Source: a virus
Reading direction: 5' to 3' (one strand)
Length of the DNA stretch: 64,000 bases
IMG/VR virus record: IMGVR_UViG_3300036846_001176
Location: 29,048-93,047 of that record
In this document: positions 1,000 to 1,910 of the stretch, one piece after another
How the letters are laid out: each line of letters starts with the position of its first letter
Position numbering within the stretch: the first letter of the stretch is position 1
Notes under the pieces: model-generated
The model's database searches: none
What the model saw: only the letters and a program-made list of their open reading frames with translations
What the model was told of the DNA's origin: nothing
Program-made: the position numbers and the translations under genes

Positions 1000-1910
1000 A
1001 TGCCGGCCGGGCCGTGCCTCGGCGTGCCTTGCCCTGCCTCGCCACGCCTGCCGTGCCTAGACGAGCCTTGCCCAGCCATGCCCTGCCTGCCGTGCCCCGC
1101 CGCGCCGAGCGTTGCCCTGCGCTGCCGTGCCGAGCCTGCCGTGCCGAGCCACGCGAGGCCCGGACGCGCCGTGCCTCGCCACGCCTGCCATGCCTCGACC
1201 TGCCGCGCGGAGCCATGCCGTGCCACGCGATGCCGAGCCTGCCGGGCCCTGCCTCGCGCGGCCGCGCCGCGCCATGTCGCGCCAAGCCATGCCGAGCCTG
1301 CCTTGCCCTGACATGCCCTGCCGAGCCGGGCCTGGACTTGCCACGCCTGCCAAGCCGCGCCTTGGCGTGACGCGCCCAGCCTTGCCATGCCCGCCGTGCC
1401 CAGCCATGCCGCGTCGTGCCGGGCCATGCGATGCCGCGCCTAGCCTGCCGTGCCAAGCCAGGCCGGGACACGCCCGACCACGACCTGCCATGCGCTGACA
1501 TGCCTGCCGCGCCGGGCCACGCCTCGCCACGCCGGAACGGGCCATGCCATGGCGCGCCATGCCTGCCCCGCCTTGCCGAGCCCTGCCGTGCCTAGCGGCG
1601 CCGAGCCCCGCCCCGCCTGGCCTGCCTTGCCGAGCCGTGCCACGCCGTGCGTTGCCGAGCCATGACCTGCCAAGCCTCGCCTGCCGTGACGGGACTTGCC
1701 TTGACCTGCCACGCCTCGCCACGCCTGCCGAGCCGTGCCACGCCATGCCCTGACGAGCCGTGCGTTGCCATGCCTGCCGAGCCACGCCGAGACGTGCCTT
1801 GGCTTGTCTCGCCATGACGCGCCTCGTCGTGCCTGCCAAGCCATGCCCTGCCAGGCCTTACCGCGACTGGGGAGGCCATGCCGTGCCACGCCTGCCAAGG
1901 TGCACCTGCC
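1000..1910 (-). ncRNA. GGC-NN pentamer guide array (VIPR-like), 17 units of 39-59 nt
   Basis: Plus strand parses as NN-GCC pentamers (variant triplets gac, gcg, gtc, ggc, acc, aac, ggg). 4-nt gcc-t-gcc delimiters at 1046, 1085, 1134, 1183, 1237, 1296, 1345, 1443, 1502, 1561, 1620, 1679, 1723, 1772, 1831, 1890 and variants at 1002, 1389; all spacings are 5n+4. Directly downstream of RAMP-like operon. Confidence 0.9.

What the first reader, a model, noticed from the sequence alone, without database searches (positions are those of the whole stretch)
1244..1295. Guide F spells an XRE/Cro-CI-type recognition helix GLSRAAIAKIE
Seen: NN = gg ct tc cg gc gc at gc aa at ga. Established: G-[VL]-S-R-x-x-I-x-x-I-E is the turn and recognition helix of XRE HTHs, typical of phage repressors and antitoxins. 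Inference: silencing a resident prophage repressor or an antitoxin could force induction or toxicity in a competitor. No matching XRE gene is in this window.
Basis: partly seen in the sequence, partly recalled or inferred. Interest (0 to 1): 0.75.

Follow-up and report, generated by a model that had tools for sequence, protein, structure and literature searches.

The report
VIPR guide matching an XRE repressor gene

Summary
Window 1244-1298 is 11 in-phase NNGCC pentamers (GGCNN on the minus strand), bounded by 4-nt TGCC register breaks. Their NN bases read gg ct tc cg gc gc at gc aa at ga.

The stretch is one guide of a 17-guide staggered vrRNA array (about 994-1910). The array lies downstream of a Cas7-like RAMP gene (2418-3263, minus) and a small accessory gene. 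This is a VIPR locus as described in three 2026 bioRxiv preprints.

Under the published 1-nt-skip rule, guide F has:
- no match in the phage itself;
- no exact match in IMG/VR or in 185,579 species genomes;
- 22/22 matches in metagenome contigs.

All exact matches are in frame, with the skipped base on the wobble position. They cover codons 39-49 (GLSRAAIANIE, the turn and recognition helix) of a 139-aa XRE/HTH_3 gene. That gene heads an XRE-Peptidase_M78 (ImmR/ImmA- or CapH/CapP-like) module on a circular plasmid of about 17.2 kb, followed by DUF2513 and a type II restriction-modification pair.

A copy 18% diverged still matches 22/22. Four other XRE lineages match 19-20/22.

The same scan had already noted VIPR in this genome and in another. 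Silencing itself and its consequence are inferred.

The parts
1244..1298 (-). Guide F: 11 GGC-NN units of one vrRNA. The plus strand reads NNGCC, with NN = gg ct tc cg gc gc at gc aa at ga.
   Evidence: Parse. 22/22 target matches.
1240..1243 (-). 4-nt register break (TGCC on plus, GGCA on minus) between guides F and E.
   Evidence: It fits the 'staggered array, 1-nt overlap' legend of fig. S18 in bioRxiv 10.64898/2026.04.26.720920.
1299..1302 (-). 4-nt register break between guides G and F.
994..1910 (-). Staggered vrRNA array: 17 guides of 7-11 units, with periods of 39-59 nt.
   Evidence: No Rfam family. The long ORFs in all six frames follow from the repeat pattern alone.
1190..1239 (-). 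Guide E: a second guide with XRE-helix spacing (I-S-L-A-E-I-V-T-I-E). It matches 15/20 one codon downstream of the F site.
   Evidence: Unit-pattern permutation.
958..990 (-). Strong hairpin at the 3' end of the array (10 + 3 bp stem).
   Evidence: -39.3 kcal/mol, z = -3.2.
1912..2418 (-). Candidate vap (168 aa), abutting vipr.
   Evidence: Called as a 168-aa gene directly after vipr in an identical Logan contig. No Pfam match.
2418..3263 (-). vipr: a 281-aa Cas7-like RAMP.
   Evidence: 1923 homologues, none with a Pfam domain. AlphaFold2 model with alignment A1 has pLDDT 74.9. The Foldseek PDB top hits are Csm3/Cas7 of type III and VII effectors, probability 0.97-1.0.

Best explanation
Guide F is one vrRNA of a phage VIPR system. 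The array is read on the minus strand, downstream of vipr and vap. By analogy with the published systems, one Vipr protomer holds each GGC and presents the two NN bases. [quoted passage not shown] These codons encode the turn and recognition helix, GLSRAAIANIE. The gene is the first of an XRE-Peptidase_M78 module (ImmR/ImmA, DdrO/IrrE or CapH/CapP type). The match is perfect on a circular plasmid of about 17.2 kb and on a diverged allele, and 86-91% on other members of the same XRE subfamily. The expected action is a gapped R-loop about 115-150 nt into the gene. This would block transcription of the repressor and probably of the co-directional genes behind it (M78 peptidase, DUF2513, type II REase and MTase). 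The guide would thus be a weapon of the phage against a co-resident mobile element or its regulated cargo. Shown here: the array anatomy, the RAMP fold, the exact and near matches, their frame, and the absence of self-targets. Inferred: expression and processing of the vrRNA, binding, repression, and the benefit to the phage.
For: 1. Locus. GGC-NN pentamers lie on the strand of a Cas7-fold gene plus a small partner gene. This is the architecture in bioRxiv 10.64898/2026.04.26.720920.
2. Exact matches. There are 22/22 matches in three JGI metagenome contigs. The same site occurs in five further contigs of the same element. Shuffled guides reach at most 18/22 on the 17-kb contig.
3. Frame. Every match is in frame with the skipped base on the wobble position, as the preprint reports for natural targets.
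4. Diverged allele. L003 differs from L002 at 61 of 330 gene positions, and at 4 of the 11 wobble bases in the site. None of the 22 NN bases differ.
5. Independent XRE lineages match at 19-20/22: L011, L014, L021 and L022. L011 and L022 are verified next to Peptidase_M78. All exceed the preprint's 80% threshold.
6. The motif G-L-S-R-[AST]-[AS]-I-A-N-I-E is family-wide. By peptide, 116 of the 151 best cluster representatives could reach 18/22 or more.
7. Target identity. HTH_3 scores 33.6 bits against a cut-off of 23, and Peptidase_M78 gives 7.6e-24. The best PADLOC hits are capH and capP.
8. No self-target, as reported for natural vrRNAs.
9. Published precedent. P. fulva-clade guides mainly hit lysis-lysogeny regulators, and cI-directed guides induce lambda.
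Against: 1. The exact hit alone is statistically modest. 22 specified bases give about 0.07 chance hits per 596 Gb under uniform composition, and a few-fold more in GC-rich DNA (my arithmetic).
2. Only guide F hits the plasmid. The other 16 guides look like shuffles there, unlike the published convergence of many guides on one element.
3. No link between phage and plasmid host was obtained. The plasmid Rep is nearest to Planctomycetes and Rubrobacter plasmids at 28-34%. The phage terminase is nearest to Rhizobium phages at about 35%. No sample accession is shared among the records the look-ups returned.
4. No exact or relaxed match was found in IMG/VR, and no exact match in species genomes.
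5. Related phages' arrays lack an F-like guide.
6. No sequence-level comparison with a published Vipr protein was possible; none is in the PDB sequence set.
Confidence: 0.75

Rival explanations
1. Anti-defence reading. The point of the guide is not to remove the repressor but to place a roadblock at the head of a DNA-damage-inducible operon. The M78 peptidase, DUF2513 and the type II R-M genes behind the XRE gene then cannot be induced during infection. This uses the same binding event as the best explanation but gives it a different purpose.
For: XRE, M78, DUF2513, an NspV-like REase (PADLOC REase_II 5.5e-85) and an MTase_II (6.7e-129) are co-directional with short gaps. The only promoter-like site in the region lies just before the XRE start, and the only strong terminator-like site lies just after the MTase. 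The best PADLOC hits for the regulator pair are capH and capP, which control immune operons in response to DNA damage (bioRxiv 10.1101/2022.04.27.489752).
Against: The promoter and terminator calls do not exceed the numbers found in shuffles. CapH/CapP pairs are described as divergent from the operon they control, whereas here the R-M genes are co-directional. The 188-aa peptidase matches only positions 4-154 of the 242-position capP profile, so it appears to lack the C-terminal GAF domain. REase protein already in the cell would not be removed by transcriptional silencing.
Confidence: 0.25
2. The plasmid is only the best-sampled look-alike. The natural target in the phage's real host would be another member of the same XRE-M78 subfamily, for example a prophage, ICE or defence-island regulator.
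For: The recognition-helix motif is shared by much of the subfamily. Four other lineages reach 19-20/22. No host link between phage and plasmid was found. Only one of the 17 guides hits the plasmid.
Against: 22/22 matches were found only on this plasmid lineage and its diverged allele. None were found in 185,579 species genomes or in IMG/VR.
Confidence: 0.3
3. Coincidence or a decayed guide. The NN string happens to match, and guide F has no functional target in this gene family.
For: A chance exact hit in a database of about a terabase is not negligible, roughly 0.05-0.25 by my arithmetic. The 32-fold relaxed pattern gave 4 hits in 596 Gb, two of them outside XRE genes.
Against: A chance string would not equal the consensus helix of a protein subfamily in the correct frame and orientation, nor match several independent lineages at 86-91%. 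The probability from the array's own unit frequencies is about 3e-13. A second guide (E) shares the S-x3-I-x2-I-E unit spacing, where 0.003 occurrences are expected; this test is post hoc.
Confidence: 0.08
4. Autoregulation: guide F acts on the phage's own XRE gene.
For: The phage has one HTH_3 gene, at G000 102315-102437 on the minus strand.
Against: No site in the 104.6-kb genome comes within 3 mismatches. The best site is 16/22, equal to shuffled guides. The phage's own helix GISVSTITLLE gives 13/22 by my count.
Confidence: 0.02

Closest known systems
VIPR systems (Vipr RAMP, vap, vrRNA). Type examples are Escherichia phage SUSP1 and a Pseudomonas fulva prophage. Sources: bioRxiv 10.64898/2026.04.26.720920, 10.64898/2026.04.26.720927 and 10.64898/2026.10.15.759431.
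   Same: GGY-NN pentamer guides on the strand of a Cas7-like gene with a small accessory gene. Targets follow the 1-nt-skip rule with the skip on the wobble position. There is no self-target. The target is a transcriptional regulator of another mobile element.
   Different: There is no 3' tail or pseudoknot between guides. Instead the array is continuous and broken only by 4-nt units, which fits the 'staggered array' legend of fig. S18. No sequence comparison with a published Vipr was available, so the type (I-VII) is not assigned. The perfect target is a plasmid gene, not a satellite or prophage gene.
P. fulva-clade vrRNAs aimed at prophage lysis-lysogeny regulators, and engineered cI- and cro-directed guides (same preprint).
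   Same: The guide lies within the coding sequence of an HTH repressor-type regulator of a competing element.
   Different: Here the repressor belongs to the ImmR/CapH-like, M78-partnered class and sits on a plasmid with a co-directional R-M pair. No induction phenotype is known.
ImmR/ImmA (ICEBs1), DdrO/IrrE (Deinococcus) and CapH/CapP (CBASS regulators). Source: bioRxiv 10.1101/2022.04.27.489752. This is the family of the target, not of the guide.
   Same: An XRE HTH gene immediately followed by a Peptidase_M78 HExxH gene. The best PADLOC hits are capH and capP.
   Different: The peptidase is short (188 aa, no GAF region matched). The neighbouring defence genes are co-directional, not divergent. 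Cleavage and DNA-damage response are untested.
CRISPR interference by type I or type III Cas7 filaments.
   Same: A RAMP filament on a guide RNA, with periodic unpaired positions.
   Different: The guide is read 2 bases in every 5 and the target 2 in every 3. There is no spacer-repeat array and no PAM, according to the preprints.

Membership tests
VIPR system | Vipr protein: a minimal RAMP (Cas7-like RRM core, G-loop, thumb) | tested here: met
   AlphaFold2 model with 37 homologues has pLDDT 74.9. Foldseek PDB hits 1-31 are all Csm3, Cmr4 or Cas7 chains, E down to 9e-5 and probability 0.95-1.0. A glycine-rich C-terminal block is invariant: G258, G260, E261, G262, R263, P264. TM-scores are low (0.3-0.5).
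VIPR system | Sequence homology to a published Vipr protein | not testable with these tools
   No PDB chain matches by sequence. Published Vipr sequences were not at hand.
VIPR system | vrRNA made of tandem GGY-NN pentamers, at least 4 units, with hypervariable NN | tested here: met
   167 units in 17 guides, with all 16 dinucleotides used.
VIPR system | Adjacent vap accessory gene | tested here: inconclusive
   A 168-aa gene abuts vipr. It has no Pfam match, and homology to vap1-6 was not testable.
VIPR system | Natural target under the 1-nt-skip rule at 80% NN match or more, gapless | tested here: met
   22/22 on eight contigs of one element or its diverged allele. 19-20/22 on four other XRE genes.
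VIPR system | Skipped base falls on the codon wobble position | tested here: met
   All matches are in frame. Two alleles differ at 4 wobble bases and at no NN base.
VIPR system | No self-targeting at 80% or more | tested here: met
   best 16/22 (73%), equal to the shuffle null.
VIPR system | vrRNA expressed, bound by Vipr, and represses transcription | not testable with these tools
   Needs small-RNA sequencing, pull-down and reporter assays.
VIPR staggered array (fig. S18 of the preprint) | Neighbouring vrRNAs share a 1-nt overlap, with no tail between them | tested here: inconclusive
   4-nt GGCA units shift the register by one base between guides. Arrays parsed with the same 4-nt-break model in three relatives (four contigs) give guides of 6-14 units. 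The figure itself could not be seen; only its legend was read.
XRE / HTH_3 (Cro/C1-type) regulator (the target) | Pfam HTH_3 domain above the gathering score, with the guide site on the recognition helix | tested here: met
   33.6 bits against a cut-off of 23, on residues 54-97 of the 164-aa ORF. This covers GLSRAAIANIE at residues 39-49 of the 139-aa protein.
ImmR/ImmA - CapH/CapP regulator pair (the target) | HTH gene directly followed by an M78 HExxH peptidase | tested here: met
   Peptidase_M78 7.6e-24. capP 1.6e-33 and capH 1.1e-9. The same pairing is seen in L011 and L022.
ImmR/ImmA - CapH/CapP regulator pair (the target) | CapP-type C-terminal GAF domain, and a pair divergent from the regulated operon | tested here: not met
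   Only capP profile positions 4-154 of 242 are matched. The R-M genes are co-directional. The pair is therefore filed as ImmA-like, not as CapP proper.
   The 17.2-kb circle carries RPA rep, parAB, phd, primase, Replic_Relax, a coupling-protein-like gene, resolvase, RadC and R-M. No phage structural genes were called.
   The partner is an M78 peptidase. The plasmid's Phd/YefM antitoxin is a different gene, and guide F has no second match on the plasmid.

The most novel reading that the evidence does not exclude
Guide F is a family-level guide. It pairs only with codon positions 1 and 2 of the most conserved helix of ImmR/CapH-type repressors, so one vrRNA could cover many diverged XRE-M78 modules. 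By peptide, 77% of the 151 nearest cluster representatives could reach the 80% threshold. A lytic phage could then blunt DNA-damage-responsive regulators of plasmids, ICEs, prophages or defence operons in whatever host it meets. Guides in this array that spell other conserved motifs would make VIPR a motif-directed anti-defence tool, rather than an element-specific weapon between phages.
Probability: 0.25. Interest if true: 0.7.

Novelty: new member of a known kind. Interest (0 to 1): 0.42.

Why it matters
VIPR was described only in 2026, from a few enterobacterial and Pseudomonas systems. This locus extends it in three ways:
- It is a different, GC-rich, 105-kb phage of unknown host, with a staggered array.
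- It yields a concrete, checkable natural guide-target pair.
- The target is the recognition-helix codons of an M78-partnered XRE repressor on a conjugative-type plasmid that carries a restriction-modification pair.

This widens the inferred target range from satellites and prophages to plasmids and possibly defence regulators. It also shows how the wobble-skipping code keeps a guide matched across alleles that differ by 18% in DNA sequence. The pair is small enough (a 33-bp site and an 11-unit guide) to test directly in a reporter assay.

Tried and rejected
1. My first reading was that the NN-as-codon idea was numerology and the tract a structural or quadruplex-prone repeat.
2. The tract as coding DNA: long ORFs appear in all six frames. 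That follows from the NNGCC pattern, in which only TAG can arise. Rejected.
3. Known RNA family: no Rfam match in the whole window.
4. Known phage: megablast of window 1-8000 against 50,697 phage records found nothing.
5. Self-targeting: none.
6. Exact guide F pattern in IMG/VR and in species genomes: 0 hits each. The 32-fold relaxed pattern in IMG/VR: 0 hits.
7. Exact guide E pattern in IMG/VR: 0 hits.
8. Other guides on the target plasmid: none above the shuffle null.
9. Single-sequence AlphaFold2 model of Vipr: pLDDT 35.6, unusable. Replaced by the alignment-based model.
10. PDB sequence search with Vipr: no hit at E up to 10.
11. Host or sample link. Six of the sample accessions are not mentioned in any held paper. 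Metagenome loci are not held for the genome search, and no relatives are drawn for a virus record. The NCBI-sourced Vipr homologues lie on whole-genome-shotgun contigs that gave no host taxon.
12. Close relatives of the target XRE in PLSDB plasmids: only 33-52% identity.
13. F-like guide in arrays of related phages: none.

Full report
**What is at the coordinates**

Window 994-1910 is a tract with a 5-nt period. GCC recurs at 5-nt spacing 92 times in window 1000-2000 and reaches 8 in no other 1-kb block. A dynamic-programming parse resolves it into 17 segments of 7-11 pentamers NNGCC. Each segment is separated from the next by a 4-nt TGCC that shifts the register by one base, giving periods of 39-59 nt.

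The sixth segment starts at 1244 and ends at 1298. Its units are GGGCC CTGCC TCGCG CGGCC GCGCC GCGCC ATGTC GCGCC AAGCC ATGCC GAGCC.

The long ORFs seen in all six frames follow from the pattern itself, because only TAG can arise as a stop. No Rfam family matches anywhere in the window.

**What kind of thing it is**

I first thought the codon reading was numerology. Three 2026 bioRxiv preprints describe Viral Interference Programmable Repeat systems:
- A minimal Cas7-like RAMP (Vipr), an accessory gene (vap), and vrRNAs made of GGY-NN pentamers.
- Only the NN bases pair with DNA. The target is read as NN-x, one skipped base per unit, and the skip usually falls on the codon wobble position.
- Natural targets were called at 80% NN identity or more, without gaps, and no self-targets were found.
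- Array forms include 'staggered arrays' whose vrRNAs overlap by 1 nt.

The window fits this description:
- On the minus strand the units read GGC-NN.
- Upstream on the same strand lie a 281-aa gene (2418-3263) and an abutting 168-aa gene (1912-2418).
- The 281-aa protein has 1923 homologues and no Pfam domain.
- Its alignment-based AlphaFold2 model (pLDDT 74.9) finds Csm3, Cmr4 and Cas7 chains of type III and VII CRISPR effectors as Foldseek hits 1-31, with probability 0.95-1.0 but low TM-scores.
- A strong hairpin closes the array at 958-990.
- Related phages (Vipr 56-73% identical in alignment A1) give arrays of 6-14-unit guides when parsed with the same 4-nt-break model.

I could not compare the protein with a published Vipr sequence, so the type (I-VII) is unassigned.

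Guide F under the 1-nt-skip rule is GGN CTN TCN CGN GCN GCN ATN GCN AAN ATN GA. Results by collection:
- The phage's own 104,559-nt record: no site within 3 mismatches. The best site is 16/22, the same as shuffled guides.
- The phage's single HTH_3 gene has the helix GISVSTITLLE, which I count as 13/22.
- IMG/VR and the 185,579 species genomes: no exact match.
- JGI metagenome contigs: three exact matches.

All three matches lie in frame in a 139-aa XRE gene, at codons 39-49. The encoded peptide is ...ITGLSRAAIANIEVGRQRV..., with every skipped base on the wobble position. Pfam HTH_3 scores 33.6 bits against a cut-off of 23, and the site is the turn and recognition helix.

Protein look-ups brought five more contigs with the same 22/22 site. 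The strand that pairs with the vrRNA is the coding strand.

**The target element**

The XRE gene overlaps the start of a Peptidase_M78 (ImmA/IrrE-type, HEIGH) gene. Behind it, in the same direction, come:
- DUF2513;
- an NspV-like type II restriction enzyme (PADLOC REase_II, 5.5e-85);
- a 514-aa type II methyltransferase (MTase_II, 6.7e-129).

The rest of the contig carries an RPA-type replication initiator, parA and parB, a Phd/YefM antitoxin, a DnaG-like primase, a Replic_Relax protein, a coupling-protein-like gene, a resolvase and RadC. The end and start of the 17,188-nt contig adjoin, with 10 nt of overlap, inside a contig from another sample. The element is therefore a circle of about 17.2 kb, that is a plasmid and not a prophage.

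The best PADLOC hits for the regulator pair are capH (1.1e-9) and capP (1.6e-33). However, only the peptidase part of the capP profile is matched. CapH/CapP pairs are also described as divergent from their operon. I therefore file the pair as ImmR/ImmA-like.

The only promoter-like site in the region lies just before the XRE start. The only strong terminator-like site follows the methyltransferase. This suggests one operon, but neither count exceeds the shuffles, so the hint is weak.

**Is the match more than chance?**

Taken alone, a 22-base exact hit is modest evidence. Uniform composition predicts about 0.07 chance hits per 596 Gb, and a few-fold more in GC-rich DNA (my arithmetic). A 32-fold relaxed pattern gave 4 hits in the species genomes: two in XRE genes and two elsewhere. 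That is near the chance rate.

The wider pattern makes the case:
- Allele L003 differs from L002 at 61 of 330 gene positions (14, 9 and 38 differences at codon positions 1, 2 and 3). In the site it differs at four wobble bases and at no NN base.
- An exhaustive phmmer search of 1.84 billion cluster representatives found 3466 relatives. Among the best 151, the helix G-L-S-R-[AST]-[AS]-I-A-N-I-E is the family norm, and 116 could reach 18/22 or more by peptide.
- At the DNA level, four further lineages match 19-20/22: L011, L014, L021 and L022. Two of them are again next to an M78 peptidase.
- From the array's own unit frequencies, a random 11-unit guide spells this peptide with probability about 3e-13 (my arithmetic).
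- Neighbouring guide E has the same S-x3-I-x2-I-E unit spacing, where 0.003 occurrences are expected in unit-shuffled arrays. This test is post hoc. Guide E matches the same site 15/20, one codon downstream.

I conclude with about 0.75 confidence that guide F is aimed at this XRE subfamily.

**What stays open**

- Only guide F hits the plasmid.
- Host assignment failed. The plasmid Rep is nearest to Planctomycetes and Rubrobacter plasmids at 28-34%. The phage terminase is nearest to Rhizobium phages at about 35%.
- No sample accession is shared among the records the look-ups returned, and no paper mentions the six accessions searched.
- The plasmid may therefore be only the best-sampled member of the target class.
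- The consequence of binding is inferred. It could instead be polar silencing of the peptidase, DUF2513 and R-M genes.
- Expression, processing, binding and repression are all untested.

**Comparison and verdict**

This is a new member of a known kind: a VIPR locus with a staggered array in a GC-rich (66%) 105-kb metagenomic phage, with one guide whose natural target class can be named. The same scan had already noted VIPR in this genome and in another.

Noticed in passing
window 1190-1239: Guide E (NN = at tc ct gc ga at gt ac at ga, spelling I-S-L-A-E-I-V-T-I-E) has the same S-x3-I-x2-I-E spacing as guide F. It matches the F target site 15/20, one codon downstream. It may be a sister guide against another XRE allele. 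No exact hit in IMG/VR.
   Followed up: partly
L016:5300-7750 (related 102.5-kb phage, Vipr 73% identical in alignment A1): The relative's staggered array keeps look-alikes of this window's guides K (I-V-G-T-S-S-G-G-I-I-A) and L (G-P-F-D-F-V-Y-A-D-P-P-W) but has no F-like guide. Part of the repertoire is conserved and part turns over.
   Followed up: partly
L005:1-17188 and L006: The target element is a circularly permuted plasmid of about 17.2 kb, seen in several samples. It carries an RPA rep gene, parAB, phd, primase, a relaxase-like gene, a coupling-protein-like gene, resolvase, RadC and an NspV-like type II R-M pair.
   Followed up: yes
L005:6807-7226: The XRE target gene is missing from the JGI gene calls on three contigs, which leave a gap between 6616 and 7159. 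It is called on the Logan contigs. It overlaps the M78 gene by about 60 nt.
   Followed up: no
window 958-990: A 10 + 3 bp GC-rich hairpin lies between the convergent upstream gene (2-952, plus) and the end of the array. The same loop sequence appears inside the relative's array region. It could be a terminator or the 3' cap of the last vrRNA.
   Followed up: partly
G000:C1:102315-102437 (outside the window): This is the phage's only HTH_3 gene, with helix GISVSTITLLE. It is not matched by guide F or guide E. The phage has no Peptidase_M78 gene.
   Followed up: yes
window 1000-1900, plus strand: The base after each NN on the plus strand is almost always G, the complement of the Y of GGY. The plus strand therefore reads as NNG 'codons' plus CC, and ATG units would read M rather than I. 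This is a by-product of the scaffold, not part of the code.
   Followed up: yes
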